DNA of 63,967 nt, counting the filler, from Conidiobolus incongruus B7586 (Eukaryota): assembly GCA_000697335.1 (NCBI GenBank). It is 10 parts of 10 records of this genome, joined end to end, with 100 filler letters (N's around TTAATTAATTAA, not from the genome) between each part and the next. Parts side by side here need not be neighbours in the genome. Positions count along the whole stretch, not along the records: positions 11,139 to 12,973 come from JNEM01007098.1; positions 13,074 to 23,259 come from JNEM01007099.1; positions 23,360 to 24,814 come from JNEM01007100.1; positions 24,915 to 33,012 come from JNEM01007101.1; positions 33,113 to 34,667 come from JNEM01007102.1; positions 34,768 to 56,330 come from JNEM01007103.1; positions 56,431 to 61,344 come from JNEM01007104.1; positions 61,445 to 62,668 come from JNEM01007105.1; 2 more parts are not named here. One strand, given 5' to 3'. The position numbers and the translations under genes are program-made. Under the pieces are notes generated by a model. The model was not told the DNA's origin. It did no database searches and was given only the letters and a program-made list of their open reading frames with translations. Position 1 is the first letter of the stretch; the number at the start of each line of letters is the position of its first letter. This document shows, piece after piece, positions 11,262 to 63,967 of the stretch.

Positions 11262-12833
11262 CACTGACCTACAAAAGTGAGTTATAAAATCAAAAACACT
11301 TATATTTTTACTAATAACTTGATTAATATTTAATAAAATAAATCTAAATTAAATAATTAAAATCTATTATATTTATTAATTATATATATTATTAAATGAT
11401 GATATTTAGCTATTAACTGACTAAAATATAAACCTTTAAATTTTACCTAGGGTGAGTTATAAATTTATAAGTTTTTGGTGATAAAAAAAAATTAAAATTT
11501 AGTATATCTATCTTTAACTTTTCTAACTTCTTTAAGTTTGTAGGGTATAGAATCAACTAACTTCTTATATTAAGAAGGGTTAATCTTTTTTATGCTTCTT
11601 GAATATATTTTTAAAGTTGATTTAAATCTTTAGCTGGGAGAAAAGCTTTAATAGCTTTTTTTAATTAATTCTAAAGGTGTTCAATTAGATTAAGGTTAGG
11701 AGATTAAAAAAACCACTTTATAACTATTATCTTGTTATTTTTAAGTTATTTTATAATAGAAGCTATAGTATAATAAAAAGTATTATCTTATTAAAAAATA
11801 ATATTAGATTTATTTAACTTATACTATTCAATAGTTTTTTTCAATTTATTATTTAGAATACTTTAGTATATTTTAGTTTTAATTTCCTTATTAACTTTAT
11901 AAAGATATTTTATACCTAAATATAACATACATTCCCAAATAATAATTAACCTATTATTATACTTTTGGGTAAAATTAACATGATAGTTACAAAGTAATTT
12001 TGTATCTTTTCTAAAGTATCTAGCTTTTCTATCAGATCCACTAAGATATATTTTTGTTTCATTAAACTAAATAACCTTACTCTAATCAATTTCAGTTTAA
12101 TATTAGTAGCAACATTTAAACTCCCACCTAGTTTTACAATGGGATTTCTTTAGTTGGGGGTGTTTTTTCTTAAAGTGTGAGTGGTATCTATGCTAACATA
12201 AAGCATGTATAATAGTATCAGTGCTAACCAATATTCTTATATAGTTTTATAATTCCTGTTGTATTTCTACAGTAATACCACACTTGCTTGTATTAACTAA
12301 CCTATAAATATACTTCTTATCATGTTCATCTATGATTTTAACATATTTAAGTTTAGGTTTAAATGTTTCTTTATTGTTATTCTTAACAGTTTTAGCTATA
12401 GTAAACTAGCTAACACTAGTAATTCTAATAATATCATGAGTTAATTTACCTTCTTTATAAAGTTGATTAATATGTAAGTAGATTTTTTTAGAGAGGGATT
12501 TAAGCATAATAATACTAATAAAAAGAATTTAGTATATTTGTAAAATATTATATAAAATAATAGCAAAGAGAGAAAAAAAATATAGTTATATATTGTTAAA
12601 TATATCCCCTTATCTCAAAAACCCACAAATTTATAACTCACCTTAGTTAAATATTAAGGGTTAATATTTTTGCTAATAGTTTACTAAATATATCTAAATA
12701 TATTTATTTATAATCAAATAATATACCTTAATTATATATTATAGTTTCAAGTAATCTAATATATACAATTGTTTTAGTTATTAATTAAAATATATATATT
12801 TTTAATTTTATAACTCACTTTTGTGGGTTAGTG
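11262..12833 (-). mobile_element. Tc1-family (DD34E) DNA transposon, subfamily A, full length (1572 bp), transposase inactivated
   Basis: TA flanks at 11260-61 and 12834-35. TIR CACTGACCTACAAAAGTGAGTTATAAAAT and its inverse at the right end. A consensus inferred across copies gives WSDETK, KYGGGSIIVWGC, QQDN-(34 aa)-WPPQSPDLNPIE and AKGGYTRF. Confidence 0.93.
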
Positions 12834-12973
12834 TATATTGTTAAATATATCCCCTTATCTCAAAAACCTACAAATTTATAACTCACCTTAGTTAAATATT
12901 AAATGTTAATATTTTTGCTAATAGTTTACTATATATATCTAAATATATTTATTTATTATTAAATAATATATCT
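12834..12973 (-). mobile_element. Fragment of a second Tc1-A copy (subterminal end region) fused directly to the previous element
   Basis: Near-identical to 12589-~12727, includes the inner repeat, and runs into a gap. Confidence 0.8.
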
Positions 12974-13205
12974 NNNNNNNNNNNNNNNNNNNNNNNNNNN
13001 NNNNNNNNNNNNNNNNNTTAATTAATTAANNNNNNNNNNNNNNNNNNNNNNNNNNNNNNNNNNNNNNNNNNNNACAATATAATTACAATTTATATTTTAT
13101 ATATTATTAAATATTATATTAATAAATAATTTAACAATAATAATTAAATATTATTTTAAATATTAATTATCAAATTAAATATTTTAATTATTTTTTTATT
13201 ATTCT

Positions 13206-16200
13206 TATAATAAGATCAATATATACATATTGTTTTAATATAAATAATATAGAAAAAGTCCTTGTTTATTTAATAATGGTTCCTTTTTTTATATGTAAAT
13301 GTTAATAAGGGTTCTATGATAAAATAAGACAAAATAAAATCAAGTAGATAAAAAGATAAGATAAAGTAAACAGATATGATTAATATGTTATGATAATAAC
13401 AAAGTAATCTAATCTATAATACTCCCTTTAGATTAAGATGTTTTTATTAAGAAACACTCTAATTATTAAATACTTTTCAGCATAAGTATAATAAGTATTA
13501 GTTTTTTGAACATTATTATAATATTCTTAAGTAGCTTTATTTTTAAAATAAATCTAAAGTATAAATGTCAGGGTGATTTTTTTTATCTATAACAAAATAA
13601 GATTTAAGCTAGTTTGGTTTTAATTTGGGGTTAAGTTATTTCTTATCATAAGGAGATTTGATTCCATCTGTTTTAATTATTATTAGTATTCTAAGTGAAT
13701 AATTTTTAATATAATAGTAGTGTTTATTATAATACTTAGCTTATTTATCTTATATGTGGGTGATTCTTTCCTGTGTAAATACTAATAATATATTATAATA
13801 TTTAAGAAAGCTAATTGAGTTTTAGGTAGTTAGGTTATTAGATCTTATGATTATTAAAACTTCAGGGTGATAACTATAAGTTAAGTAAAATAAAGTTATC
13901 CTAGTGGATAAATTAACAAAATTATTAAAGGTAAATTTTAAAAAGGGTAGTATTTGTTTCTAATTAGTTATGTTATATTTAAGATATAATTTTAAAGCTT
14001 TTTTAACTATATAAATATATCTTTCTAATTGTTTATTAGTTTGTTGATATTAGGAAGAACTAGGATTGTTTTAGCAATTAAGTAATTTTATAAGAGTAAC
14101 CTAAAATTTAAAAGTAAAGTAAGTATCATAGTCTATTATAATGATATAAGGAAGTCTATAGTATTAAAATATATGCTAGACAAATAGTTCAGTAATTTTT
14201 TTAGCATTTGTTTTATATTTTATTGGGATTAGATATAGTATTTTTATGAGTTAATCAACAAAGATCATAATACTATTGTAATCTGTGTTAAACTTTAGTA
14301 TATTAATAAAATCTATGGTGATATCTTTCTAGTGTTGTTTAGGGATAGGTAAAGAGTTTAAAGTTCTAGGAGGTAATTGGTTATTAATTTTATTGCTTTA
14401 ATATTTATTATAAAAGAACATATATTTCTTAACTTTAATTTTAATATATAACTAATAATAATTTTATGCTATTTTTTTATAAGTTCTTAATTAGCTTTAA
14501 TAACCATTAGTTATATTATTATAATATATAGTAAAGATTTTAGCTTTGATATCTAAAACATTAAGGATATAAATATAAGATTAATAGTAAAGAAGATTAT
14601 TGAGGAATTTGTAGTGTTTTACATATTATAAAATTTTAACTGTATTTATTTTGTTAAATAAAGATTTAATAATATTAAACTAATTATTATAATTTAAAAC
14701 AAACTTTATATCCTAGAATAAGTTAAATTTATAATTAATAGTAATATTATTTAACTAGGTAATAGGATTTTTATATTTTAAGTATAAGGGTATATAATTA
14801 ATTTTTTTAGATAATAAATCAATAATATCATTATAAACTCCTTTGATATATTTTATCTTAATATTAAATTTTTAAATATACTAACCTATAAAAGTAAGTT
14901 ATAAAATTATAATTATATATATTATTATTAATAACTCTATTAATTCTTAATCAAATTAAATTAAATTAAAATATATAATAAACTTATATTATTTATTTAT
15001 AATTAAGTATATTTAATCTAATTATATTAACTTTTAGTTGATATATTAAAATTTAAATTTTATCTAAGATGAATCATAAATTTATATATTTTAGTTATAG
15101 AAAAAAAATTAAAACTTAATATATTTATCTTTTATTTTCTTAACTTCCTTAAGTTTATAAAGTATAGAGTCAACTAACTTTTTATATTTAGAAGGATTAA
15201 TTTCATTTTAAGCTCTTTAAATATATTTCTAAAGTTCATTTAAATTTTATATTGATGGAAAAGCTTTAACTATTTTTTTAATTAATCTTAAAGATATTTA
15301 ATTAGATTAAAGTTAAAAGATTAAAGAAGCTACTTCATAACTATTATTTTATTATTTTTAAATTATTTAATAATAGAAATAATAATATAACAAGGGGTAT
15401 TATCTTATTAAAAAATAATATCTGATTTATTTAACCTATACTATTCAATAGTTTTTTTAATTCATTATTTAAAATATTTTAATATATTTTAACATTAATT
15501 CCCTTATTAATTTTACAAAAATACTTTACACTAGAAGATAACATATATCCTTAAATTATAATTAACCTATTATTATATTTTTAGGTTAAAATAACATATT
15601 GGTTATAAATTAGTTTTTTGTTTTTTCTAAAACATTTAGCTTTTGTATTAAATCTACTAAGATATATTTTTGTTTTATTAGATTAAATAACCTTACTCTA
15701 ATCAAATTTAATTTAATTTTAATAGTAACATTTAAATTCTTACTTTGCTTTATAATAAAACTTTTTTAGTTGGGGGTGTTTTTTCTTAAAGTATAACTAA
15801 TATCTATTATAATATAAAGCATATATCATAATATTAGAACTAATTAATATTCTTATATAGTTTTATAGTTCTTTTTATATTTCTACAGTAATATTATACT
15901 TACTTATATTAACTAACCTATAAATATATTTTTTATCATATTTATTTATAATCTTAACATATTTAAGTTTAAGTTTAGATATATTTTTACTATAATTTTT
16001 AATAGTTTTAATTATAGTAAACTAGCTAACACTAGTAATTCTAATAATCTTATAAGTTAATTTACCTTTATTATAGAGTTGATTAATATACAAATGAATT
16101 TTTTTAGAGAGGGATTTAATTATTTTGATACTAATATTATATAAAATAATAATTTACAATAATAATTAATAATAATAATATCAGTATATATATATATAAT

Positions 16201-19200
16201 TTAATAAAAGAAAAAAGATTTAAGTAATTTTTGTTTTATATACTCTTTTAAATCTTAAACTTATAAATTTATAACTCACCCTATTTAAAATTTAAGATTT
16301 AATATATTAACCAATAATATATTAAATATAATTAAATTTAACCTATTATAATTAGGTAATATAGTTTAATTATATACTTTAGTTTAAATTAATTTAGTTA
16401 AGAGTTATTTAAATTATAAGTAAATATATAGAGTGATTTTTATTTTATAACTTACTTTTATAAGTTAATATATAGTTAATCTATTTAATTTATTATTTAC
16501 TTAGATTTTTTTGATTATTGATATAAATAAGAGAAAGGTGATTAGTTAAGATATAGATAAAGTTAAAAGATAAGTATAAACAAAAATATTTTAAATATTC
16601 AATTAATATAAATAATTCTTGTTTATATACTAGGTAACTATGTTCTATAGGTAATATTTTATATAAATAAAAAACAATAGGTGAAATTTAATAATATCAA
16701 ATAAAAACTTAGTGATATTTACTCCCTTTTTAATATTATCTAGAGTATTAATATTGAAGTTGATGTTTATAGGTTATTTAAGCTAACTATTAATTATAAA
16801 GCAAAAGGCATCTATTATTATTATAACTAAGAGATTAAGATCAAATAAAACAAGGTAAAGGGTGTTAGTGATAGTATAAATTAAAATAATAAAGGTAGAG
16901 TATTTATTATATGACTAAAACCAAGGGTTTTTTTAAAAAGATTAGACAAAAAGGCACTAATTTCAACAAATGATTGAATAAAATTATAGAAATAATTGGT
17001 TATATTAAACAATAATTAAAGTGATGGTATATGTATAAGGTAAAGCTATTTATAAATATTTCAAATTTTGTTAAGATTAATATATACATTATTAGCTAAT
17101 AAAAGATAACTATAAAAAGAAACTTTAGGTTATATAAAAAGGTATTTAGATAATTTAATAAAAAGTATATTTTTTTAAAGATCTTAAATATATAATAATA
17201 ATATATAATATAATTTTTTATAATTGTAGAATAGAATAAAATATTGTCAAGATAAATAATTATAAAAGAATCTTAGATTTCAAAGAATAAGTTATTGATA
17301 AGTTATAGGAATATAACAAAAGTATTATAGAAATTAAAAGGAAATACTATGAATTTATAATATCTATAATAAATATTAAAAGCAATTAATAGAATAAAAT
17401 CTGGGTTTATAGCAATATTATAATATTTATCTTTTATATCAAGTTTAATAAAAATATTATAACCTATATTATAATCTTAAAGTTTAATTAAGTTTAGTAA
17501 TAAAGTTTTATCCTTAATGATTTTTTGTTAAAAGTTTAATAATTAATATAAAAGTGTAAACTTTTATTTTTTTCTTTATAAAGAAAATAAGTGATCTTTA
17601 AAAAAATATAGATGATTTGATAAAACCCTTACTAAATAGTTTAAATAATATTTCTTTAAAAATATTATTCTCTTTAAGAATTATGTGATAAATAAGATAA
17701 TATACTAGTTAAAATCTGAGCTCAAGTTTTATTTTATATTTTATGTTATATTTAGGTGATAATAAAATTTAAGATTAGAATTAATCTATGTATTTTTAAA
17801 TTAATATATATAATAGGTGGTTAAGATTTAAATTCATATTATTAATATTTATATTATTTTAATTAAGTTTAGGATTGTTAAGGGAACTAAAGTTTAAAAA
17901 AATTAAATTTTTAGATTTATGTTATTTTTTACTAATAATATTTTTAAAGGTAGATTTAAAAAGTATAAAATTACCTAACTCAATAATTAATTTATATTGA
18001 GTTTAGTATTAATTATCTTTATATATAGATTAAAATAATTATATTTTAACAAGAATAAGCTATAAGTAGTATAAAAATGTTAATAATCTTTAGTTATAAT
18101 TTAAAATAATAAATGGTTATAAATCTATAAAATATTAAAGATTAAATTATATATTAAGGGTGTAATTATAAACTAAAGGGTTTTATAGTAATCAGATATT
18201 AGTAATAAAATAATAATAATATATTTAAAAGACTATAAAGTTGTTTTATCACTTAAGGTGATATTAATAGGTTTTAGAGTTATTTTAAGATTTAATAGGG
18301 AAATTAAATTTTTATTGATTATATAATTATTAGCTCTATTATTAATAAATATAGTGATAGATTTAAAATTCAAATGTTTAGTGGTTAAAAGAGATATAAT
18401 GTTACTAATAATTTTAATTTGCTAACTAATAAAAGGTGTAGAACCAACAAAAGTAGTTAGCTTATTAATTTTTACTATTGGTTTTATCTTTTTTTAAAGA
18501 TAGATTAGGGGTTATTTAAATATTAAGCTAATTATTATTAGGGTAATTTCTTGAGTAATAATTATTATTAATTTTACAGCAATAGAAACAGTTATTGTTT
18601 TTACAAAAATATTTATATTCTTATTATATTAAAGATTTTAATAGTTGATTATTAGGTATAGTATACAAATAGGTGTCATTGATAACTTTGTTGTTAAAAT
18701 TATAGTTAGTAGGTATTTAATTAATATAATAATAGTGAACATTAATAAGACAACATTTATAATGATTAAGATATTAATAACAATAATTATATTTGTTAAG
18801 ACTGATAGCTAAATTAGTAATGTTTTAAAATAAGTCTTTTTATAAATTTATTTGTTAAAGTATATTATAATAAATATAAGACTTTAATTTATCTAAAAAG
18901 TGTATATTATAATTGAGATCTTATTTTAATGATAATTGATTCTTAAAATAGTGAATTTATTTAACAAATTCTTAAATAAATTATTTCTGAACTAAATTTT
19001 TTAATTTATTATATAAAAATATAATATTGTTAGTAGGGTAATATTCTTAGTATAATTCTCTGATAAGATTTCTAAAGGTTTAAATATTTTCATTAAGGTA
19101 TTTATTTGAAGATACTTAGATGTAAATTTATTAGTGATATTTAAACTAATTTCATATATTTCTAATAAAAAACTAAGATGCTATTAATAATTTGTCTTTT

Positions 19201-19732
19201 ATATTATAGCTAGATATATTAAAATAATTATTTAATATGTTTTTATAATTTTTAAGAGTATTAGTAAATTATTGTTTATTATAATTATAAAGTTTTTTGT
19301 ATTAGAGTTTTATATTAACTAGTAGTTAATTAAGTAACATTATTATGCTTAATATTTATAATTGATTTATTATATATATATATATATATATATAATTATT
19401 AAGTTAAGAAAATTAATTTTGGTTAATTAAATTATAAACAGGTAATTAATATCAAGATGATTTAAATTCTTAGTTTTTTTAATATTAGTGTAAAGATTAA
19501 GTATTTATTGCTATCATATAATAGGGTTAATATATATAAGTTATTTTAATATAAATAGTGTGAAAAAAGTCCTTATTTATTTAATAATGGTTCCCTTTTT
19601 TATATGTAAAAATTGGTGAGGATTCAATGATAAAATAAAACAAAATAAGATCAAGTAGGTAAAAATATATAATAAAGTGAGTAGATATAATTAATATATT
19701 ATAATAATAACAAAGTAATCTGATCTGTGATA
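13206..19732 (-). mobile_element. Ty3/Gypsy LTR retrotransposon, structurally complete but degenerate, interrupted by a Tc1 copy
   Basis: 216-bp LTRs at 13206-13421 and 19517-19732. 5-bp TSD ATTCT at 13201-05 and 19733-37. PPT (AAAGGGAG on minus) at 13422-29 and PBS-like TGATAGCA next to 19516. Relics of RT IYLD(N)ILFYS ~17240, RNase H end ..IEYIKG.. ~14850 and integrase (W)KDIT(M)DF ~14320, in RT-RH-INT order. Confidence 0.9.
14879..16470 (-). mobile_element. Tc1 (DD34E) subfamily B, full length, nested in the Gypsy RNase H region
   Basis: TA flanks at 14877-78 and 16471-72, degenerate TIRs, colinear with 59153-60717. The Gypsy pol frame resumes across the insertion. Confidence 0.9.
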
Positions 19733-22081
19733 ATTCTTTATAATTATTAATTAAAATAATTACCTTGATAATTTAAACTTTGTTAATAATATTTAATTTA
19801 TTTTTATATATTATTTTATTGCTTATATTTTTTTATATAAAATTATTCCATTTAATTATTTAAATTAAATCTTTCTTAATCAATCTAAAGTTATAATATA
19901 TTTTATTTTACATCCATTTTAAATTAATTTAATTTATGAAAATAATATTTAATAAAAGTTTATAATTAGTTGATTATTATCATATCAAGTTTTATATAAT
20001 ATATATTCTTATAATTTTTCTTAAAATATATAACTTTATTAATCTTAAAAAAGTTTTAATTTAAAAAATTCTCTTTTTCAAATAATTTAACATAAAAATA
20101 AATGTTTCAATAATTATAGTTAAAAATATTTTATTAATTATCTGATATATAAATTTTAATTTAACTGATAAAATATGATTAAAAATTTATGCTAATTATT
20201 AATCTTAATATAATTGATGGTAAATTACTTTGAATATAAATTTAATATAAAAAATTACTCGAAATATCATTAAATACTAATATATTTCAAATATTAAATA
20301 GCTAGATTATTAATGAGGTTTAAACTTGCCTTATTAAGGGGAATCCTATAAAAAGATAAGAAATATTAGGTAAAAAAGCCAAAAAGATAAGTAAAAAATA
20401 AAGAAAAAAAATTAAAGTTAATAGAAATAGAGGAGAAGGTTTATTTAGGAAAGTCAGATAGTTTAAATATTTTAAACTTATTAAACTATGGCTTATAAAG
20501 TGGATTTTCTAGAATATCACCAGTTCTTAGGACAAAAGGTTATATTATCCTTTTTATTATAATTATTTTTTGAAAAGTTATATGAAAAAAATATTATTTA
20601 GTTTGTGAATCACTAAAATTTAATTTCAAAATTAGAAACAAAGTAATAAGTGTTTTTTTATTAAAAGCAAAAATATGTATTCCGCTAAATATATACTTCT
20701 ATTAATGATAATATTCAAAGCCAATAGTTTTTTTTAAACAAAAAATTCAATGTTATAATTAAATATGCAAATATTAATAAATTAAATTTATAAACCCTAA
20801 ATAATTAATTAAAATTTTCCCTTTTAAAATATTTTAAAAATTTCAGTCATTTTATAAATATTTCCAATAAATATAATTTGAAATATAAATATTAATTAAT
20901 AATATGTTAAATTTTTATTTTATCACTTATTTATTCAATATATATAGATCCATAATTTTTTAATATAAATTAATCAATTTTGATAAATTTCTATTATTAA
21001 TTTTATTCAATTTAGAAAAGAAATTATTTCAAAAAATAAAACACTATATTAAATTATCAGAGATAATATAATTAGCATATTAATTAATTAATAAAATTAT
21101 AGAAAAAAAAATAATCAAAATTGATAATTTATGAAAATACAATTTTTGGAATTTAAAATGAGTTTATCAATCTAATTAAATAATATTTTAATTCGGAGCA
21201 AATTTAAAAATCCAATTAAACAACTATTTTATAAGCATCTAGTTCTATTTTTAAGGTTTCTCAGATCCAGACAAATGCTGATAAAAGAAAATATATTATC
21301 AAATTAAGTTATTGGAAAGTAAGTGTTTAAAAAAATAAAATTAGATTAAAATTCAAAATATATGTTTATAAATTTTTATATATATTAAGTTTTACTAATT
21401 AAAATATTCCTCATAATAAATATTACTCTAAACTTTGAATAATAAGAGTTTTTTGACATTGAAAATAAATAAGAATTTTAATATATATTTTACATAAATA
21501 AATATATAATATAATATTAATACTCCTTTTTATTATTAATAACTCTTAACGTTTGAAATTAATTATTTTTATTAATAACTTAAATTTGATATTTTATAAA
21601 CTCATTAAATTTATTAAATTTATTTATAATTTTTTATTGTTAGATATTTTTTTAGTTATTTAGGATAATTTTAATTATATAGATTAATATTTAAGAAATA
21701 TATTAATTATAAAAGATTTATTTAATTACAAAATAACTAAAAAATTTTTATAGCTATAAATTTATATAATTTATAATTATAATATAAATTAATAGATAAT
21801 TTTGTATTATTATTAATAAGGTTATTATTATTAAATTTGTTTTATTAAGAATTATATAGATATAACATATTTTGTTATATTTTATTATAATATTAATATG
21901 GAAATTAAGAAATGGCAAATTTTTTAATTTCTGATCTTTCAAATATATTATATGTTTTGAAAGATTACATATATATAAAATATATAGGAAAATAAATATT
22001 TTCAAACTATATATATATATTCAATTTTTATTTTTTTTTATTAAAATATTTTGATTTTAAAATTTATACTTAAATTTAATT

Positions 22082-23114
22082 ATGCTTAAATCAAATTGTA
22101 ATTATCAAATGGCTTTTATTTTTATATTTTTAAAACTTAATCATAAATCCTCTAAAATTATCTAAAACTTGCAAACAGTTTATAAAGATGGTGCTTTATC
22201 TAAAACTACCATATATTGCTAGATTTGTGATTTTAAAACTAAAAGGGACACTATTCAAAATTTACCAAAATCTAAAAGACTAATTTCTACTATTATTCTT
22301 TCACTTATTAATAGAGTAAAAAAATATATTAAGAAATATCTTTTTATTTCTGTTAGAGAATTATTAAAGTAATTTAATATTAATTATATAAGCATATTAT
22401 ATTTACTTAAGTTTAAACTTGGATTAATTAATAAAAATGTAAAATAGATACCTTATAATTTAACAAAAGTTTAAAAAAAAATAGAGTAACTATAGCTAAA
22501 CTAAACTTATTAAGGTATAACCAAAAACAAAGGTTTTTACAATGAATACTTATAATTGATGAAACTTAGATTCCTTTATATAATCCTTTACATAAAAATA
22601 AAACAAGATATTAGGTTAAGCTAAATCAATCCCCTTTATAAATTCTAATAAATAAGCATTTTAAATATAAGTGAATGTTAATTTTTATAATAGATTATAA
22701 TGGTATATGGTTTTCTTATTTAATACCTTAAGGGAAATCAATTAATAGTGAGTTATATATTACTTTTTCAAATAAAACAATTTCTAAATGGTGTTTTCAA
22801 TATAAATTGAGGATACCTATTATTTTGCATAATAATTATAAAATATATAAAGCTAAAGCTATAAAAGATTTTTTATATAAAAAAATTAGAGGGAGTTACC
22901 ATATCTAATAAATTCACCTGATTATAACCAATATGATTATAATTGTTTTAGATAATTAAAAAAACAGCTTGCAAGAAAAAAAATTCCTGCAAACAAATTA
23001 AATTGGTTTGTGAAATATCAAATTTCAGTCCTGAATAAAAAGAATTATTTTTTAAGTATTAAAAGCTTACTAAAGGTATAGAAAAAAGTTATTAATAATA
23101 AAAAAGGCTATTAA
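22082..23114 (+). mobile_element. Degenerate mariner-type (DD34D) transposase; TIRs not resolved
   Basis: After reverting transitions: VY(G)DGALSKTTIY(RW), LP(R)S(G)R(P), (W)IP(H)NL, IDET(W)I, LH(D)N..(H), LP(HP).NSPDYNQ(C)DY. These correspond to the mariner WVPHEL and YSPDLAPxDY motifs. Confidence 0.85.
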
Positions 23115-23359
23115 TTTTATATTATTCATTAATTTTTATATATTATTTATTAATTTATTTATTTAATTAATTTAATTTTAAAATTATATTATTATTTAAT
23201 TTCTGCACTAATATTTGATAATTGATAATAAATTAATTATTTATTAATTGGAATTTATCNNNNNNNNNNNNNNNNNNNNNNNNNNNNNNNNNNNNNNNNN
23301 NNNTTAATTAATTAANNNNNNNNNNNNNNNNNNNNNNNNNNNNNNNNNNNNNNNNNNNN

Positions 23360-24814
23360 ATATAATTAAAGTATATTATTTAATAATAAATAAATATATT
23401 TAAATATATATAGTAAACTATTAGCAAAAATATTAACCCTTAATATTTAACCAAGGTAAGTTATAAATTTACAGGTTTTTAAGATAAAAGGATATATTTA
23501 ATAATATATAACTATATTTTTTTCCTCTCTTTGTTATTATTTTATATTATATTTTACAAATATACTAAATTGTTTTATTAGTGTTATTATACTTAAATCC
23601 CTTTTTAAAAAAATCTACTTGTATATTAATTAACTTTATAAAAAAGGTAAATCAACTTGTGATATTGTTAGAATTACTAGTTTTAGTTAATCTACTATAG
23701 TTAAAGCTATTAAAAATAACAATAAAGAAATATTTAAACTTAAACTTAAATATATTAAAATGATAAATAAATATAATAAGAAGTATATTTGTAGGTTAAT
23801 TAATATAAGTAAATGTGGTACTACTGTAGAAATATAATAGGAATTATAAAACTATATAGGAATATTAGTTAGCATTGATACTATTATATATATTTTATAT
23901 TAGCATAAATACCACTTATATCTTAAAAAAAACACCTTTAACTCAAGAAATCCTTTTATAAAGTTAGGTAAAAGTTTAAATATCACTACCAATGTTAAAT
24001 TAAAACTAATTAGAATAAATTTATTTAATCTAATAAAACAAAAATATACTTTAGTAGATTTAATAAAAAAGCTAGATATTTCAGAAAAAATATAAAATTA
24101 CTTTATAACCATTATGTTAATTTTACATAAAAATACAATAGTAGGTTAATTATTATTTGGGGATATATATTATTTTTAGGTATAAAGTATCTTTGTAAAG
24201 TTAATAAAAAAATTAATATTGAAATGTATTAAAGTATTCTAAACAATAAATTAAAAAAAACTATTGAATAATATAGGTTAAATAAATCTAATATTATTTT
24301 CTAGTAAAATAATACTTCTTGTTATACTATAGCTTTTATTACTAAATAACTTAAAAATAATAAAATAATAGTTATAAAGTAACTTCTTTAATCTTTTAAC
24401 TTTAATTTAATTAAACACCTTTAGGATTAATTAAAAAAAGTTATTAAAGTTTTCCCCCTAGTTAAAAATTTAAATCAACTTTAAAAATATATTTAAGAAG
24501 TATAAAACAAGATTAACCCTTTTTAATATAAGAAGTTAATTGATTCTATACTTTACAAACTTAAAGAAGTTAGAAAAGCTAAAGGTAGATACATTAATTT
24601 TAATTTTTTTTATCACCAAAAACCTATAAATTTATAACTTACTTTAGGTAAAATTTAAAAATTTATATTTTAGTTAATTAATAGCTAAATATTATCATTT
24701 AATGATATATATAATTAATATATATAATAGATTTTAATTATTTAATTTAAATTTATTTCATTAAATATTAATTAAGTTATTAGTAAAAATATAAGTGTTT
24801 TTAATTTTATAACT
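23360..24814 (+). mobile_element. Tc1-A copy with both ends lost in gaps
   Basis: Reverse-complement colinear with 11262-12833 over its whole length. Confidence 0.92.
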
Positions 24815-49531: not shown

Positions 49532-52029
49532 TTATTTACCATTAATAGGTTTTTTGTTATCGAGTAATCCGATAATATCTTCAGGAATTGCTGGGACGTT
49601 CCCTGGCTTGTTGGGATTGAAAGATGCCATTTCTGATTGGGTAGGGATAGAGAAGGGTAACAGATGATTAGGGTCTTTGAGTTCGTTTTGGATGGGGTAT
49701 GGAATGGGCTGATTGGACTCAAGAACTGGGGATCTAGTCGGTGTTGCGGATTGGATAGTTATATTATCTATTCCTTCGGCCATTTGAAGATCCAGATCAA
49801 CACTATCAGTATCCTTATGAGAGAGAGTAGGAGATTGCTCTGAGGAAGTGGGTGGGTATGGAGAATTAATGCTTGAATCCATTTCAGAAGGCTCTGAGGA
49901 TATGGTATTTGAATTCTGAGTAACCAAGATTCGAGGTGCTATTTTTGGAGTTGGTGTTGTGTCAACGTCTTGTAGAATCATAGATTGTCTTCCATCCCTA
50001 GTGGCAGCTTTAGATTCCAATTGTTGGCATAAAACTTGGTCAGATGTCACTTTAATATAGTCAACAATTTCGTCAGGAATTCTAGGCTCGTCTGTTTCAT
50101 AACGATAGTTCTCACTAACTCTTCGAATTTGTAGTGGATTTAATTCCTCAAGTGATTTAAGAGTATCAATGAATTCTTGTGAAGAGGTGTGAGATGAAAA
50201 GATTTGAAGGAACTGCAACAATTGAATCAAAGGTTTGAAATGATGATTCAAATGGTGAACCAAGGGACTAGATCCATGGTTACGAATCCAATCTTCAATA
50301 TTAGTGATATTCATTCGAATTTGCATTGCTCTGCTGCGACAACAGTATTTCTTATGTTTCAAAATTTGGTTAAAGAGATGGCAGGAAATGAAATAAATCA
50401 ATTGATTCAAAATGTGATGGACAAGCATAGGATGGACTTCATAAGTTTGTAAAACAAATAACGTATTTCCCAAAATATTAGTAATCGTAGCAGGTGAAGG
50501 TTTGGTTTTTCCATTGATACCAGCGTGAGGGGTCTTTGGCTTCCTTCTCAAACTTAAAGTTCTTCTCAATGATAACGAGGAGCTACCTGAGTCACTAGGT
50601 TGATCCTCAGAATCATCATCATCATCACCGCCTCCAAGTCCAAATAAAAATGATTTTTTCTTTAAGCCAAATTTAGATTCATCCGTTAAACCTGGAATAG
50701 TTTCACAGTTAAGAATGGCCTGATTAAGTTCAAGATGGAGCTTATTTTGAGCTTCTTTTACGAAAAGTTGGTAAATTTCGTGAACCAATTCAGAAAGAGA
50801 CAATTGATGATCGACTGTACCAGCGACAAGGCTGGTGTCTTTCTTAATATAATATAGTAATTGAGTAGTGTTGGCCATCCAAAAAGTAATTAACATGGGA
50901 TCATCTGGATTTTTCCTCAATCTAGTAGTCAATGCGTTAATAAACCCATTCAACAAGCTATCCAATAAATCTGGTGTGCTGTAGTAATGAGCAAATCGAG
51001 CACATAAAAATATGACATTTGCGGGCGCTAGTTTCTGTTCTCTGGTATACATTGGCTTGATATTTGTGACAACAGTTGATAGAATATGGGGTACTTGATC
51101 TTCATTAAAAACATACATTTGATCTGGCATGCATTGATCCCAAATGAATTCAGAATTCATAAAGTCGTTCAATGCTTCATCCTTATACCCATCGTTTTGG
51201 CCATTCATCATATCTTCCAAATTGTTTCCTAAGGTTTCAATCTGAGCAGCTTTATCAGCGTCATATTTGGCAAATTCATCTTGAATTCCATCTGGATCAG
51301 TATAAGCCATACTGTTTATTGATAAAGTATCGAAATCACGAGAGTCGTCTAGAGCATTTAAACTAAAACAACTCGCTACAGATTGTCGCGATTGATGCTT
51401 TCTTTGAAAGTTATAAGATAAAATTTCGGTCAACTTGACACTCTTCTGGTTGCTGTCAGCAGTGATACCATGATTAATAATATCTACAACAGTTCTTCCT
51501 TTAGCAGTTTTAGTAGCTGGGGAAGCGCCATTTTCTAATAATATTTTGACAATATCTTCGTGATTATTATTAGTTGCCCACATTAGTGCTGGCCATCCGA
51601 CTATAGAGAATTAATAGGGTAAATAATTTTGAGTAATTCGATATAAATAAACTTACTTTTATCTTGAACATTAACACTAGCACCATTTTCCAACAAAGTT
51701 TTAACAATATCGAAATAACCAAAGCAAGCAGCATAAACTAGAGGGGGAGTACCGTCCGAATCAGGTTTATCCAAGTCTAAATACTCTCTCACTTCTTTGA
51801 TTAATTTTTCAACCTCCTCCAAGTCGTTATTACTACAAGCTCTCTGTAGGAATTTGGTAAGTTTTTGCGTCTTCTCCTCCTTAGTATAATAATTTTTATT
51901 CGCTATCTCCATAGGAGTCTCCAAAGTTTCGGAAATTAAATCTATTAGAGCTTCGTCTACACTTTGAGTCGAGTTATTCCTGCCATTTCTGTGAGGATCA
52001 GGTGACTGATTTGAAACTACTTCTGCCAT
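49532..52029 (-). CDS. Ankyrin-repeat + DIL (dilute) domain protein, exons 52029-51657 and 51600-49532
   Basis: A 56-nt intron 51656-51601 (GTAAGT..TAG) joins the ORFs. Ankyrin repeats GTPPLVYAACFG and GWPALMWA; F.WDQC.PDQM motif; DIL signature LFNQIL...CCRSRAMQIRMNITNIEDW..LIQLLQFLQ..LNPLQI....NY. Confidence 0.92.
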
Positions 52030-56430: not shown

Positions 56431-59144
56431 TTATTATAGTTAAAATTATTAAAAATAATAATAAAAATATATTTAAATTTAAACTTAAGTATGTGAAGAT
56501 TATAAATAAATATAATAAGAAATATATCTATAGGTTAGTTAATATAAACAAATATAATATTATTATAAAGTATTACAATGATTATAAGACTATATAAGGA
56601 TATTAATTAATATTGATATTATTATATATATTTTATATTAGCATAGATATCACTTATATCCTAAGATAAAATACCATTAACAAAAGAAATCATATTATAA
56701 AATAAGATAGGAGTTTAAATATCACTATTAATATTGAATTAAAATTAATTAAAATAAAGTTATATAGTTTTATAAAACAAAAATATATCTTAATAAATCT
56801 AATAAAAAAGCTACATATTTCAGATAAAATATAGAATTACTTTATAACTATTATGTTAATTTTACATAAAAGTATAATAATAGGTTAATTATTATTTAAG
56901 GATATATATTATATTTAGATAACAGATATCTTTATAAAATTAATAAGGGAATTAATACTAAAATATACTAAAGTATTTTAAATAATAAATTAAAAAAACC
57001 ATTGAATAATATAAATTAAACAAATTTAATGTTATTTTTTAATAAAATAATATCTTTTGTTATATTATAACTTTTATTACCAAATAGCTTAAAAATAACA
57101 AAATAATAGTTATAAAATGGTTTCTTTAATTTATTAATCTTAACTTAATTTAATATCTTTAAGATCAGTTAAAAAAAGCTCTTAAAGTTTTTTTTTAATA
57201 AATTATTTAAATTAGCTTTATAAATAAATTTAAAAAATATAGAATATGATTAACCTATTTTAGTATAAAAAGTTACTTGATTCTATACCTTGTAAATTAA
57301 AGATATTAGAAAAGCTAAAGGTAAATATATTAAATTTTAATTTTTTTATCATTAAAAACCTATAAATTTATAATATACCTTAGGTAAAATTTAAAGATTG
57401 ATATTTTAGCTAATTAATAATTAAATATTATAAATTAGTAATTTATATTATTAATAAATATATATAATTTTAATTATATAATTTTGGTTTATTTTATTAG
57501 ATATTAATTTAAATTATTAGTAAGAATACACTAACCTGCAAAAGTGAGTCATAAAATCAAAAACACCTATATTTTTACTAATAACTTGATTAATAATTAA
57601 TGAAATAAACCTAAATTAAATAATTAAAGTCTATTATATTTATTAGTTATATATAACATTAAATGATGATATTTAGCTATTAATTGGTTAAAATATAAAC
57701 CCTTAAATTTTACCTAAGGTGAGTTATAAATTTGTGGGTTTTTGGTGATAAAAAAAAATTAAAACCTAGTGTATCCACCTTTAGCTTTTCTAACTTTTTT
57801 AAGTTTGTGGGGTATAGAATCAATTAACTTCTTACACTAAGAAGGGTTAATCTTGTTTTATGCTTCTTGAACATATTCTTAAAGTTGATCTAAATTTTTT
57901 GCTAGGGGGAAAACTTTAATAGCTTTTTTTAACTAATCCTAAAGGTGTTTAATTAGATTAAAATTAGGAGATTAAAGAAACTACTTTATAACTGTTATCT
58001 TGTTATTTTTAAGCTATTTGGTAGTAGAAGCTATAGTATAGCAAGAGGCATTATCTTGCTAGAAAATAACATTAGATTTATTTAACCTATATTATTCAAT
58101 GGTTTTTTTCAATTCATTGTTTAGAATACTTTAGTACATCTTAGTATTAATTCCCCCATTAACTTTATAAAGATACCTTATACCTAAAGACAATATACAT
58201 CCCTAAACAATAATTAACCCACCACTATACTTTTAGGTAGAATTAACATAATAGTCACAAAGTAGTTCTATATCTTTTCTGAAGCATCTAGCTTTTTTAT
58301 CAAATCTACTAAGGTATATTTTTGTTTCATCAGACTAAATAACCTTACTCTAATTAGTTTCAGTTTAATATTAGTGGTGACATTCAAACTCTTGCCTAGT
58401 TTTATAGTGGGATTTTTTTAGTTAGGGGTGTTTTTTCTTAAGATGTAAGTGGTATCTATGCTAACATAAAGCATGTATAATAGTATCAGTGTTAACTAAT
58501 ATTCTTGTATAGTCTTATAGTTCCTGCTATATTTCTACAACAGTACCATACTTGCTTGTATTAATTAACCTATAGATATACTTCTTATCATGTTTATCTA
58601 TGATTTTAGTACACTTAAGTTTAAGTTTAAATGTTTCTTTATTGCTATTCTTAACAGCTTTAACTATAATAGATTAACTAACACTAGTAATTCTAACAAT
58701 ATCACAAGTTGATTTACCTTCTTTATAAAGTTAATTGATGCATAAATAGATTTTTTTAGAGAGGGATTTAGGTATAATAATACTAATAAAAAAAATATAG
58801 TATATCTGTAAAATATTATATAAAATAATAATAAAGAGAGAAAAAAGATATGGTTATATATTGTTAAATATATCCCTTTATCTCAAAAACCCACAAATTT
58901 ATAACTCACCTTGGTTAAATATTAAGGGTTAATATTTTTGCTAATAGTTTACTAAATATATTTAAATATATTTATCTATTATTAAATAATATACCTTAAT
59001 TATATATTATAGTTTCAAGTAATCTAATATGTACAATTGTTTTAGTTATTAATTAAAATATATATATTTTTGATTTTATAACTCACTTTTACAGGTTAGT
59101 GTATAATTGTTTTTGATTTTATAACTTATTTTTATAAATTAGTA
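56431..59144 (+). mobile_element. Tc1-A-related copy (56431-57528 plus 59102-59144), split by a nested copy
   Basis: Colinear with 23360-24814. The terminal ~43 bp resumes at 59102 exactly where the sequence broke at the TA at 57527-28. Confidence 0.88.
57529..59101 (-). mobile_element. Tc1-A, full length (1573 bp), the least degraded copy, nested in the TIR of the previous copy
   Basis: TA duplication at 57527-28 and 59102-03; both TIRs present; QDNAS motif still readable ~58050. Confidence 0.94.
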
Positions 59145-59152
59145 TATATATA

Positions 59153-60717
59153 CACTAACCTACAAAAATAAGTCATAAAATTATAATTATATATATTATT
59201 ATTAATAACTCTGTTAATTCTTAATCAAATTAATTTAAATTAAAATATATAATAAACTTATAATATTTATTTATAATTAAATATATTTAATCTAATTATA
59301 TTAACTTTTAGTTGATATATTAAAATTTAAATTTTATCTAAAATAAGTTATAAATTTACATATTTTGGTTATAGAAAGAAAATTAAAACTTAGTATATCT
59401 ACCTTTTGCTTTCTTAACTTCCTTAAGTTTATAAGGTATAGGGTTAATTAACTTCTTATATTAAGAAAGATTAATTTTATTCTAAGTTTCTTAAATATAT
59501 TCTTAAACTCATTTAAATTTTTTACTGGTGGGAAAATTTTAACTGCTTTTTTTAACTAATCCTAAAGGTGTTTAATTAAATTAAAGTTAGGGGATTGAAG
59601 AAGCTACTTCATAATTATTAATTTATTATTTTTAAACTATTTGGTAGTAGAAATATTAGTATAGCAAAAAGTATTATCTTGTTAGAAAATAATATCTGAT
59701 TTATTTAACATATATTATTTAATAGTTTTTTAAATTTATTATTTAGAATATTTTAGTATATTTCAATATTAATTCCCCTATTAACTTTATAAAAATACCT
59801 TACACCAGAAGATAGCATATATCCTTAAGCTATAATTAACTTATTATTATATTTTTGGGTTGAAATAACATAATAGTCACAAAGTAGTTCTTTGTCTTTT
59901 TTGAAATATCTAGCTTTTCCATCAGATTTACTAAAGTATATTATTATTTCATTAAACTAAATAACCTTACTCTAATTAATTTTGGTTTAACTTTAATGAT
60001 GATATTTAAACTCTTACCTAGCTTTATAATAGAACTTCTTTAATTAAGGGTGTTTTTTTTGAGGTGCAAGTGGTATCTATTATAATATAAAACATATATA
60101 ATAGTATTAGTACTAACTAATATTCTTGTATAGTTTTATAATTTTTTTTATACTTCTACAGTAATATTACACTTACTTGTATTAACCAACCTATAAATAT
60201 ACCTTTCATTATATTTATTTATAATCCTAGTACATTTAAGTTTAGGTTTAGATATATCCTTATTATAATTTTTAACAGTTTTAATTATAGTAGATTAACT
60301 AGCACTAATAATTCTAATAATCTTATAAGTTGATTTATCTTTACTATAGAGTTGATTAATATACAAGTGAATCTTTTTAAAGAGGGATTTAGGTATTTTA
60401 ATACTAATATTATTTAAAATAATAATATTAGTATATTTATTTATATATAATTTAATAAAAAAAAAGATTTAAGTAATTTTTGTTTTATATACCCCTTTAA
60501 CTTCTAAACCCACAAATTTATCACTTACCCTATTTAAATTTAATGTTTGATATATTAACCAATAATATATTAAATATAATTAAATATAACCTATTATAAT
60601 CAGGTAATATACCTTAATTATATATTTTAATTTAAATTAATTTAGTTAAGAATTGTTTAAGTTATAAGTAAATATATAAGTGATTTTTATTTTATAACTT
60701 ATTTTTATAGGTTAGTG
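59153..60717 (-). mobile_element. Tc1 subfamily B, full length (1565 bp)
   Basis: TA flanks, TIRs CACTAACC.../...GGTTAGTG, colinear with 14879-16470. Confidence 0.93.
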
Positions 60718-60719: not shown

Positions 60720-61344
60720 TAATTAATTTTAATTTATAAAGCAATATTTAGTATATTTATCTTTTGCTTTTTTAACATCCTTATGTTTATAAAGTATAAA
60801 ATCAAATAAATTCTTAAATTTAACAAAATTAATATTATTCTAAGTTTTTTAATTATATTTTAAAAATTAATATAAATTTTTTACTAAGGGGAAAATTTTA
60901 ATTAAATTTTTTAATTGATTTAAAAGTTATTTGATTAAATTAAGATTAAAAAATTTAGGAGGTTATTTTATAATAATTTTTTTATTATTGATAAGCTATT
61001 TGATAATAGAGATTATATTATAACTAAAGATATTTTTATTAAAAATTAATATTTAATTTTTTTAACATATTTTACTCAAAATTGTTTTCAATTTATTATT
61101 TAAAAAATATTAATATAACTTAAAATTAATTAATTTATTAATTATCTTAAGATTGTTTATACCTAATAATAATATATATCCTTAAATTATAATTAAGCTA
61201 TTATTGTATTTTTGGGTTATAATAATATAATAGTTATAAAATAGTTTTTTATCTTTTTTGAAATATTTATTTTTTTATTAAATTTATCAGAATATATTTT
61301 ATTAAACTAAATTAAATAACCTTATCTTAATTAATTTTAATTTA
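60720..61344 (-). mobile_element. More degraded Tc1 relic (transposase C-terminal half)
   Basis: Colinear with the catalytic region of the A/B copies but more divergent and almost free of G/C; ends in a gap. Confidence 0.75.
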
Positions 61345-61444: not shown

Positions 61445-62668
61445 ATATAATATTTTATAAATATACTAAATTTTTTTATTAGTATTATTATATTTAAATC
61501 CCTCTCTAAAAAAATCTACTTGTGTATTAATTAACTTTATAAAAAAAGTAAATTAACTTGTGATATTGTTAAAATTACTAATGTTAGTTAGTTTACTATA
61601 GTTAAAGTTGTTAAAAATAACAATAAAGAAATATTTAAACTTAAACTTAAATGTGTTAAGATTATAGATAAATATAATAAGAAGTATATATGTAGGTTAG
61701 TTAATATAAGCAAGTATAGTACTACTGTAGAAATATAACAGGAACTATAAGATTATACAAGAATATTAATTAACACTAATATTATTATATATGTTTTATA
61801 TTAATATAAATACTACTTACATTTTAAAAAAAACACCTTTAATTAAAAAAATCCTATTGTAAAATTAAATAGGAGTTTAAATGTTACTACTAATGTTAAA
61901 TTAAAACTAATTAGAGTAAGGTTATTTAATCTAATAAAACAAAAATATACTTTAGTGGATTTAATAGAAAAGCTAGATACTTTAAAAAAAATACAAAATT
62001 ACTTTGTGATTATTATGTTAATTTTACCTAAAAGTACAATAGTAGGTTAATTATTATTTAGGGATATATGTTATTTTTAGGTGTAAAGTATCTTTGTAAA
62101 GTTAATAGGGGAATTAATATTGAGATATATTAAAATATTCTAAACAATAAATTAAAAAAAACTATTGAATAATATAAATTAAATAAATCTAATATTATTT
62201 TCTATTAAGATAATACTTTTTATTATATTATAGCTTTTACTACCAAATAACTTAAAAATAACAAGATAATAGTTATAAAGTAACTTCTTTAATTTCTTAA
62301 CTTTAATCTAATTAAACACCTTTAGGATTAATTAAAAAAAGTTATTAAAGTTTTCCCCCTAGTAAAAAATTTAAATTAACTTTAAGAATATATTTAAGAA
62401 GTATAGAACAAGATTAACTTTTTTTAGTGTAAGAAGTTAATTGATTTTATACCTTATAAACTTAAAGAAGTTAAAAAAAACTAAAGGTAGATATATTAAG
62501 TTTTAATTTTTTTTATCACTAAAAACCTATAAATTTATAACTCACTTTAAGTAAAATTTAAAGGTTTATATTTTAGCTAATTAATAGCTAAATATCATTA
62601 TTTAATAATATATATAACTAATAAATATAATAGATTTTAATTATTTAATTTAGGTTTATTTTATTAAA
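61445..62668 (+). mobile_element. Tc1-A copy between two gaps
   Basis: Colinear with 23360-24814. Confidence 0.92.
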
Positions 62669-62768
62669 NNNNNNNNNNNNNNNNNNNNNNNNNNNNNNNN
62701 NNNNNNNNNNNNTTAATTAATTAANNNNNNNNNNNNNNNNNNNNNNNNNNNNNNNNNNNNNNNNNNNN

Positions 62769-63967
62769 TTAAAATCTATTATATTTATTAATAATATATA
62801 TTATTATATGATGATATTTAGCTATTAATTGGTTAAAATATAAACACTTAAATTTTACCTAAGGTGAGTTATAAATTTGTAGGTTTTTGATGATAAAAAA
62901 AATTAAAACCTAATATATTTACCTTTAGCTTTTTTAACTTCTTTAAGTTTGTGGGGTATAGAATCAATTAACTTCTTATACTAAAAAAGATTAATCTTAT
63001 TTTATATTTCTTAAATATATTTTTAAAGTTGATTTAAATTTTTTATTGGGGGAAAACTTTAATAGCTTTTTTTAACTAATTTTAAAGGTGTTTAATTAGG
63101 TTAAAGTTAGGAGATTAAAAAAACCACTTTATAACTATTATCTTGTTATTTTTAAGTTATTTAATAATAAAAGTTATAATATAACAAGAAGTATTATCTT
63201 ACTAGAAAATAACATTAAGTTTATTTAACCTATATTATTCAATAGTTTTTTTTAATTTATTGTTTAAAATACTTTAGTATATTTTAATATTAATTCCCTT
63301 ATTAACTTTATAAAGATACTTTACACCTAAAGACAACATATATCCCTAAATAATAATTAACCTATTATTATACTTTTAGATAAAATTAACATAATAGTTA
63401 TAAAGTAGTTTTGTATTTTTTTTAAAGTATTTAGTTTTTTTATTAAATTTATTAAAGTATATTTTTGTTTTATTAGATTAAATAACTTTACTCTAATTAG
63501 TTTTAATTTAATATTAGTAGTAACATTTAAATTCCTACCTAGTTTTATAATAGGATTTTTTTAGTTAAGGGTGTTTTTTTAAAATATAAGTGGTATCTAT
63601 GCTAATATAAAATATATATAATAGTATTAGTGTTAACTAATATTCTTGTATAATTTTATAGTTCCTACTATATTTCTACAGTAGTATTATATTTACCTGT
63701 ATTAATTAACCTATAGATATACTTCTTATTATGTTTATTTATAATCCTAGTATATTTAAGTTTAAGTTTAAATGTATTTTTATTGCTATTTTTAATAGCT
63801 TTAACTATAATAAACTAACACTAGTAATTCTAGAAATATCACAAGTTAATTTACCTTTTTTATAAAGTTGATTAATATACAAGTGGATTTTTTTAGAGAG
63901 GGATTTAAGTATAATGATACTAATAAAAAAAATTTAATATATCTATAAAATATTATATAAAATAATA
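62769..63967 (-). mobile_element. Tc1-A copy truncated by a gap and by the window end
   Basis: Colinear with 57620-58830. Confidence 0.92.

What the first reader, a model, noticed from the sequence alone, without database searches (positions are those of the whole stretch)
11262..63967. Repeat-restricted, RIP-like C->T hypermutation (CpG and CpA biased) in what appears to be a non-Dikarya fungus
Seen: copies of the same TE stay colinear with few indels but differ almost only by C/T and G/A changes on both strands (e.g. CACTGACCTACAAAAGTGAGTTAT at 11262 vs CACTAACCTGCAAAAGTGAGTCAT at 57529; likewise the two 216-bp LTRs). By eye I found no CpG in the TE blocks (~11.2-19.7, 33.1-38.6, 56.4-64 kb), whereas genes have many. 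Trp codons mostly become TAG or TAA, CAR becomes TAR and ATG becomes ATA, which is a CpA/TpG bias; CpT is the best preserved context. Tc1, mariner and both Gypsy elements are all affected. Established: RIP (RID/DIM-2 dependent, CpA-biased in Neurospora) is characterised in Dikarya. Inference: a homology-dependent mutational defence, or non-CG methylation followed by deamination, operates here.
Basis: partly seen in the sequence, partly recalled or inferred. Interest (0 to 1): 0.78.

Follow-up and report, generated by a model that had tools for sequence, protein, structure and literature searches.

The report
RIP-like transposon hypermutation outside Dikarya
Every transposon in this stretch of an early-diverging, Conidiobolus-like fungus has lost all its CG dinucleotides and many other cytosines through C-to-T changes while neighbouring unique DNA is spared, a pattern likely produced by a DNA-methyltransferase-linked defence resembling the repeat-killing mutation system accepted so far only in higher fungi.

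Summary
In 23.7 kb of Tc1, mariner and Gypsy DNA there are 0 CpG (159 expected) and CpA is depleted. Equally AT-rich non-TE DNA keeps both. Five Tc1 copies differ by 1428 transitions and 99 transversions, and their mutations fit no single tree. Per-cytosine loss runs CpG >= CpA > CpT > CpC, about 50-370 times the transversion rate. Only 4-23% of events are at CpG. Conserved Trp codons read TAG 33, TAA 40, TGG 5, TGA 0 of 81. CpG-only decay and genome-wide AT drift fail their tests. One correction: CpC, not CpT, is best kept. The host groups with Entomophthorales. The most likely cause is methyltransferase-linked mutation of silenced repeats; a homology trigger, meiotic timing and the enzyme are untested. 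An index-only hint exists for Zoophthora, while a kingdom-wide screen scored Conidiobolus coronatus 'no_rip'. This scan noted similar patterns before in Endogonales and Dimargaritales (unchecked notes).

The parts
11262..12833 (-). Tc1 family A copy A1, full length, TA-flanked, 0 CpG
57529..59101 (-). Tc1 family A copy A2, least mutated; transposase frame 57759-58775 has no frameshift but 23 stops
23360..24814 (+). Tc1 family A copy A3 (whole small contig between gap linkers)
61445..62668 (+). Tc1 family A copy A4 (whole small contig)
62769..63967 (-). Tc1 family A copy A5 (small contig, cut by the window end)
14879..16475 (-). Tc1 subfamily B copy B1, nested inside Gypsy-1 (ends approximate)
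59153..60717 (-). Tc1 subfamily B copy B2; B1 vs B2 differ by 174 transitions and 29 transversions
56431..57500 (+). Tc1 subfamily C copy C1, partial (contig edge; right end approximate)
60743..61344 (-). Tc1 copy D1, partial and more diverged
13206..19732 (-). Gypsy-type LTR retrotransposon 1; 216-bp LTRs at 13206-13421 and 19517-19732, ATTCT target duplication, RNase H and integrase remnants, 0 CpG
33113..38677 (+). Gypsy-type LTR retrotransposon 2 (gap linker at 34668-34767), gag and integrase remnants, 0 CpG
22050..23259 (+). Mariner-type transposon remnant, 0 CpG (left end approximate)
   Evidence: PF01359, E 0.006
43000..43990 (+). Control: low-copy pseudogene of a Tc1-HTH-derived gene; keeps 11 CpG and shows no context bias
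44873..45658 (+). Control: intact Tc1-HTH-derived ORF (paralogue of the pseudogene), 22 CpG
49532..52029 (-). Ankyrin/DIL-domain gene used to place the host with Entomophthorales

Best explanation
Transposon copies in this Conidiobolus-like fungus carry a huge excess of C-to-T changes on both strands, likely because a cytosine methyltransferase of the DNMT1/DIM-2 type attacks silenced repeats in CG and non-CG contexts and the attacked cytosines are then fixed as thymines. Shown: the changes are confined to TE DNA, fit no single copy genealogy, follow the 3' neighbour (CpG >= CpA > CpT > CpC), and come in successive hits, since a CpC becomes a better target once its neighbour has turned to T. 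Inferred: the enzyme, the targeting by repeat or heterochromatin status, and a deamination step faster than simple chemistry (enzyme-assisted or unrepaired), as in the mitotic Dim2 mutator of Zymoseptoria. The outcome is that of RIP: stops fill every transposase frame and GC falls from at least 33-38% to 15-23%. Whether the trigger is DNA homology, and whether it acts before meiosis, is open.
For: Maximum-likelihood rates per cytosine (5 copies, 353 sites): CpG 1.4 (0.7-4.7), CpA 0.85 (0.73-1.01), CpT 0.46 (0.40-0.56), CpC 0.21 (0.15-0.27), against 0.0039 transversions per site. Polarised on the intact transposase P0099: CpG 86/110, CpA 118/155, CpT 71/171, CpC 105/294 mutated. 216 of 338 residues are explained by C>T/G>A alone, 86 by the reverse direction. 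The 3' base removes 156 deviance units and the 5' base 25. Neurospora RIP also depends on the 3' neighbour, which the authors tie to base flipping by methyltransferases. In CC pairs the 5' C is lost in 23/252 cases when the 3' C is intact and 50/174 when it is T. All 10 possible splits occur and the best tree fits 44 of 120 informative sites. About 25,000 contig pieces per run from the same sample vary at 293 of 368 C/G positions by transitions, with 29 transversion positions (run X4). Intact relatives are not CpG- or CpA-poor: 11 of 12 have CpG o/e 0.69-1.06. Precedent: Dim2 drives C>T in methylated TEs during mitosis (PMC8016269). 5mC marks TEs in CG and CHH in Phycomyces and is repeat-bound in Linderina (PMC11258239). 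Entomophthoralean proteomes carry PF00145 proteins (PMC11105155).
Against: No methyltransferase gene and no methylation were observed: no genome is held, and PF00145 also covers the tRNA methylase DNMT2 (recalled). Zymoseptoria Dim2 spares CG (>98% of changes at CA), whereas CG is wiped out here. In Amselem 2015, CpA/CpT signatures occurred only in genomes with RID/Masc1. A weak strand signal leans towards episodic RIP: copy-by-strand interaction p=0.04, and same-strand clustering at 20-60 bp p<0.001 in one of six distance bins. The CC coupling is partly confounded, because non-adjacent CWC pairs are also coupled (0.28 vs 0.59). Codon 137 (Trp in 47 of 60 relatives) appears as TGA in about 22% of read depth and never as TGG or TAG at 1% or more. 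That breaks the hierarchy and may be an inherited stop or an Arg codon, so some shared changes may predate amplification.
Confidence: 0.55

Rival explanations
1. A true RIP analogue: duplicated DNA is recognised by homology in the sexual (zygospore) cycle and mutated in bursts by a RID-like or co-opted methyltransferase, with ordinary CpG methylation decay on top.
For: Rates of 50-220 times the transversion rate at non-CpG sites, with CpA the first non-CpG context. All TE classes are hit while a linked 62%-identical duplicate is spared. Weak strand bias and clustering. Conidiobolus forms homo- or heterothallic zygospores (PMC7136305). RIP index 24.2% in Zoophthora radicans, with two-domain methylase candidates. 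C. coronatus has 0 repeats of 1 kb or more at 95-100% identity and 555 at 80-95% (supplement), though assembly collapse could also give this.
Against: CpG >= CpA here, whereas CpA stands out in Neurospora. [quoted passage not shown] The spared duplicate is too diverged to test homology. The first run test found no copy with p<0.05.
Confidence: 0.26
2. Purely passive hydrolytic deamination of very dense CG plus CH methylation in TE heterochromatin, with poor T:G repair and no catalytic help.
For: The hierarchy CG > CA > CT > CC is the usual order of 5mC contexts (recalled, no call). CG and CHH methylation of TEs exists in Phycomyces. Mutation load is not shown to be decoupled from copy age: only 23 transversions in five copies.
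Against: Non-CpG sites mutate at 50-220 times the transversion rate, well above the roughly 30-fold recalled for heavily methylated mammalian CpG. Human CpG is only about five-fold depleted at 70-80% methylation, against 0 of 159 here. A CpG-only simulation leaves 96% of Trp codons intact, against 6% observed.
Confidence: 0.13
3. An AID/APOBEC-type cytidine deaminase edits transposon DNA.
For: Pure C>T excess. Some same-strand clustering. A small 5' effect, with CCA the hottest CpA (81/124).
Against: Specificity lies in the 3' base, not the 5' base (156 vs 25 deviance units), unlike APOBEC motifs (recalled). Both strands and both DNA and RNA transposons are hit alike.
Confidence: 0.04
4. Genome-wide AT drift, intrinsically CpG-free elements, or an assembly or sequencing artefact (chimeric or damaged repeat contigs, intact copies collapsed into gaps).
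For: The genome is very AT-rich, all nine gaps lie at or inside TE blocks, and three copies are tiny contigs. Chimerism could inflate homoplasy.
Against: AT-matched non-TE DNA keeps CpG and CpA. The pseudogene control has ts/tv 125/138 and flat contexts of 0.26-0.32. Intact relatives are CpG-normal. In contigs of the sample's reads the intact base at one Arg CpG (58406) holds only 1.5-2.3% of depth, so hidden intact copies are few.
Confidence: 0.02

Closest known systems
Repeat-induced point mutation (RIP) of Neurospora crassa (RID and DIM-2 branches)
   Same: C:G>T:A excess on both strands, limited to repeats, all TE classes dead, 3'-neighbour specificity with CpA first among non-CpG contexts, positive composite RIP index (40 of 41 TE windows).
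   Different: CpG is lost completely and is at least as hot as CpA. The host is Zoopagomycota. RID, homology trigger and premeiotic timing are not shown.
Dim2-dependent mitotic C>T mutagenesis of Zymoseptoria tritici (PMC8016269)
   Same: C>T mutation of TE regions far above background, strong CpA component, no need for meiosis.
   Different: There more than 98% of changes are at CA and CG is spared. Here CpT and CpC together carry about half of the visible events and no CG survives.
CpG-first, CpA-second TE signature of Tuber melanosporum, and CpG-only signature of Microbotryum and rusts (PMC4352252)
   Same: CpG is the top context, as in Tuber.
   Different: Tuber has RID/Masc1 and Dim2. The basidiomycete pattern is CpG only, whereas 77-96% of events here are non-CpG.
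RIP-index signal in Zoophthora radicans and other Entomophthoraceae (PMC11105155)
   Same: Same order of fungi, same direction of dinucleotide bias.
   Different: That report is a dinucleotide index without copy alignments, context rates or controls, and its table leaves out Conidiobolus and Neoconidiobolus for that analysis.

Membership tests
RIP (Neurospora type) | Large excess of C:G>T:A transitions on both strands of repeats | tested here: met
   1428 transitions vs 99 transversions; C>T and G>A about equal per copy
RIP (Neurospora type) | Restricted to repeated DNA, unique DNA spared | tested here: met
   one 64-kb window only
RIP (Neurospora type) | Mutations arise in each copy after insertion | tested here: met
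   best tree fits 44 of 120 informative sites; Trp>TAG/TAA in subfamilies A, B, C and D, with A and B diverged under codon constraint; some inherited changes not excluded (codon 137)
RIP (Neurospora type) | CpA preferred over all other dinucleotides, CpG included | tested here: not met
   CpA > CpT > CpC holds, but CpG >= CpA and no CG survives (Neurospora statement)
RIP (Neurospora type) | Episodic, strand-clustered mutation | tested here: inconclusive
   p=0.04 interaction and one significant distance bin of six; no signal
RIP (Neurospora type) | Triggered by sequence homology of any duplication above about 400 bp and 80% identity (thresholds recalled) | not testable with these tools
   the only non-TE duplicate found is 62% identical
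RIP (Neurospora type) | Acts in premeiotic haploid nuclei | not testable with these tools
   needs crosses; zygospores exist in the genus
RIP (Neurospora type) | RID/Masc1 methyltransferase present and required | not testable with these tools
   no genome held; literature places RID in Dikarya only
Dim2-type mitotic mutagenesis (Zymoseptoria) | C>T almost only at CA, CG spared | tested here: not met
   294 of 677 visible events at CA; 0 CpG left (paper)
Dim2-type mitotic mutagenesis (Zymoseptoria) | DIM-2-class enzyme, 5mC on TEs, mitotic timing | not testable with these tools
   no genome, methylome or mutation-accumulation data
CpG decay of methylated TEs (DNMT1/Masc2 type) | Excess mutation confined to CpG | tested here: not met
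   27 of 677 events at CpG by GC-maximised reading, 86 of 380 by outgroup; simulation
Dikarya (host) | Conserved host protein groups inside Ascomycota or Basidiomycota | tested here: not met
   Ank/DIL protein sister to Neoconidiobolus + Entomophthoraceae, SH-aLRT 99, quick tree of one gene; C. coronatus fragment 76% identical over 80 aa

The most novel reading that the evidence does not exclude
A homology-triggered, RID-independent RIP operates in Zoopagomycota. Repeat-directed hypermutation would then predate the Dikarya or have arisen twice from DNMT1-type methylation, and k-mer screens miss it in AT-rich genomes.
Probability: 0.26. Interest if true: 0.85.

Novelty: new variant of a known kind. 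Interest (0 to 1): 0.63.

Why it matters
The latest kingdom-wide screen concludes that RIP-like signatures are unique to ascomycetes and scores Conidiobolus coronatus 'no_rip'. Earlier work tied CpA/CpT signatures to RID. This window gives alignment-level, controlled evidence of mostly non-CpG repeat hypermutation in an entomophthoralean. It also shows why that screen could miss it: no 4-mer here passes the two-fold-plus-two-fold rule, because unique non-coding DNA is already as AT-rich as the mutated repeats (my 4-mer version on this window only). Culturable, zygospore-forming Conidiobolus species would let one ask directly whether RIP grew out of ordinary repeat methylation. The defence might also bear on why Conidiobolus genomes stayed less repetitive than those of Entomophthoraceae (inference).

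Tried and rejected
Whole-genome and methyltransferase search: no genome is held. The word-seeded protein search with the mutated transposase found nothing; the full HMMER search did. Gypsy frames scanned on the wrong strands gave no Pfam hits; the right strands did. Runs X5 and X7 gave no laid contigs, which is no proof of absence. No RNA holder was listed. CHG-type symmetric targeting was rejected: CAG/CTG are not depleted and CWG pairs are not coupled. A clock-versus-burst test from transversions had too few events (23). Leakage into flanks could not be tested, because CpG spacing in AT-rich flanks is already hundreds of bases and many TE ends abut gaps. My first impression that the active ancestor was CpG-poor (6 CpG by GC-maximised reading) was weakened by the outgroup, which implies 11 Arg-codon CpG sites in the ORF alone. 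The careful tree did not finish; the quick tree was used, with 29 of 98 hits chosen by hand for taxonomic spread. In one search, 37 of the 39 variant rows were used (two transversion rows dropped). Three CpT sites there at over 95% loss may be rare T>C variants, and without them CpT (0.13) is no higher than CpC (0.15). Bewick et al. 2019, the most relevant methylome survey, was not read and could bear on novelty and on the enzyme. Three large supplementary tables of PMC12543289 could not be opened.
Full report
Observation. The window is a gene-bearing, very AT-rich fungal scaffold with nine 100-base gap linkers. Self-alignment finds nine Tc1-type copies, two LTR elements and a mariner remnant. 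Pfam supports these identities weakly once stops are read as X. A full search finds an intact, gap-free colinear 338-residue Tc1 transposase, P0099, 40% identical to copy A2. The nine TE blocks (23,711 bases, bounds set from alignments, LTRs, gaps and translation) hold 0 CpG where 159 are expected, with CpA o/e 0.63. Non-TE, non-ORF DNA under 20% GC (16,585 bases) holds 43 CpG with CpA o/e 1.08. Richer non-coding DNA and ORFs look the same. The composite RIP index is positive in 40 of 41 TE windows and 0 of 72 non-TE windows.

Spectrum. The ten pairs of family-A copies show 1428 transitions and 99 transversions; B1 vs B2 174 and 29; the Gypsy-1 LTRs 30 and 5. A likelihood fit that allows for sites lost in every copy gives per-cytosine rates of CpG 1.4, CpA 0.85, CpT 0.46 and CpC 0.21, against 0.0039 transversions per site, i.e. 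about 370, 220, 120 and 50 times (the CpG value rests on 8 cytosines). Polarising on P0099 gives 78%, 76%, 42% and 36% mutated. The CpG share of events is 27 of 677 by the first route and 86 of 380 by the second, so most damage is non-CpG either way. Trp codons contain no CpG and give an unbiased test. At nine Trp positions of P0099, in nine copies, the codons are TAA 40, TAG 33, TGG 5, TGA 0, other 3. With the tenth position, codon 137, they are TAA 48, TAG 33, TGG 5, TGA 1, other 3. Simulations show that CpG-only decay leaves 96% TGG, a flat non-CpG rate gives TGA about equal to TAG, and only a 3'-graded rate set resembles the data, still with too many TGG.

When the changes happened. Among 120 informative sites all ten possible splits occur, 58% of site pairs are incompatible and the best tree fits 44. 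The copies were therefore mostly hit separately, though chimeric assembly or gene conversion could add to this. Subfamilies A and B differ by transversions mainly at third codon positions (12 of 19, p=0.007), so they diverged while coding and were killed in parallel. Codon 137 is an unexplained exception. In read contigs it appears as TGA in about 22% of depth and never as TGG or TAG at 1% or more, which suggests an inherited stop or an Arg codon. Tests for bursts are weak: copy-by-strand interaction p=0.04 and same-strand clustering at 20-60 bp (p<0.001, one bin of six), and nothing significant.

Beyond the window. Four runs of one sample, possibly the source of the assembly and so not independent, hold the window. 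About 25,000-32,000 contig pieces per run lie on copy A2. In run X4 they vary by C>T at 147 positions, G>A at 146, T>C or A>G at 130 and by transversion at 29; the tool notes that some differences went uncounted (368 C/G positions). Over 78 bases read in full, mean loss is CpG 0.70, CpA 0.64, CpT 0.36 (median 0.09) and CpC 0.15. Intact bases at the hottest sites hold 1-3% of depth, so a few young copies may exist but collapse of intact copies does not explain the picture. Of the first twelve of 72 metagenomic Tc1 relatives, eleven have CpG o/e 0.69-1.06 and all have CpA o/e above 1.

Control. A low-copy pseudogene at 43.0-44.0 kb, paralogous to an intact Tc1-HTH-derived ORF at 44.9 kb, has decayed with 125 transitions and 138 transversions. 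Its C>T is flat across contexts (0.26-0.32) and 11 CpG remain. The gap-free first 190 columns give 43 and 30 with similar contexts. Decay alone, even of TE-derived DNA, therefore does not give the signature. At 62% identity this pair does not test homology sensing.

Host. The ankyrin/DIL protein hits Massospora, Neoconidiobolus and Entomophthora first among named proteins and matches a Conidiobolus coronatus fragment at 76% over 80 residues. In a quick one-gene tree of 30 rows it is sister to Neoconidiobolus plus Entomophthoraceae with SH-aLRT 99, outside Dikarya. A Conidiobolus-like entomophthoralean is the best reading; the species is not determined.

Mechanism. Dependence on the 3' neighbour (156 vs 25 deviance units) points to a cytosine methyltransferase rather than an APOBEC-type enzyme (inference; the same dependence is described for RIP in passages of 10.1101/344036). 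The rates seem too high for passive chemistry alone (the comparison with mammalian CpG rates is recalled). I put 0.55 on methyltransferase-linked mutation of silenced repeats, 0.26 on homology-triggered RIP, 0.13 on passive decay of dense CG and CH methylation, 0.04 on a deaminase and 0.02 on artefact or drift. No enzyme or methylation could be examined.

Literature, as seen. PMC12543289: passages, section 9 and supplement rows; RIP-like signals unique to ascomycetes, C. coronatus 'no_rip'. PMC10515909 / PMC11105155: passages and supplementary file 3; RIP index 24.2% in Z. radicans with stated caveats, Conidiobolus not in that analysis. PMC8016269: passages. PMC4352252: passages and part of Table 2. 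PMC5751038, PMC11258239, PMC7862722, PMC12344493 and PMC7136305: passages. PMC13297926: passages and section 9. Searches listed no alignment-based report for Conidiobolus, but the library covers only open PMC and bioRxiv papers. Four unchecked notes of this scan describe similar patterns in Endogonales and Dimargaritales; none concerns this genome.

Verdict. Real, strong and controlled. It works like RIP in outcome but fails the CpA-first test, and membership of RIP is unproven. It is a new variant of a known kind, partly anticipated in print. Interest 0.63.

Noticed in passing
window 43000-46940: Tandem cluster of three Tc1-HTH-derived sequences (one pseudogene, ORFs at 44873 and 46623) with Pro/Glu/Lys-rich tails and no DDE domain seen in the ORFs; possibly domesticated transposase fragments. 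Only three unnamed relatives of similar length were found.
   Followed up: partly
window 58365-58367 (Tc1 codon 137): A usually conserved Trp position reads TGA or TAA, never TGG or TAG, in 9 copies and in read contigs; may mark an inherited stop (amplification of dead copies in trans) or an Arg codon.
   Followed up: partly
window 11039-62768, nine places: Gaps have the form 44 N + a 12-base six-frame stop linker + 44 N, all at or inside TE blocks; contig order across them is not assured.
   Followed up: partly
window 56431-63967: Dense cluster of six Tc1 copies, with C1 and A2 tail to tail and A2, B2 and D1 adjacent; the least mutated copy (A2) sits inside it.
   Followed up: no
window 10266-10864, 10859-11034, 24916-25256, 32843-33005: Older, shorter remnants related to the mariner and Tc1 ends, with ts/tv near 1 at about 70% identity; probably saturated relics.
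   Followed up: no
window 5404-6501 (-), 26850-27209 (+), 41714-42184 (+), 2278-2655 (+): Host genes: a KilA-N/APSES-like protein (resemblance recalled, no Pfam hit), a tyrosyl-tRNA-synthetase-like exon, a CAP-domain protein and a DPBB/expansin-like protein; all keep CpG.
   Followed up: no
L011:463-1446: One metagenomic Tc1 relative is CpG-depleted (o/e 0.20) but CpA-rich (1.42), the pattern expected from CpG-only decay; a natural contrast to this window.
   Followed up: no
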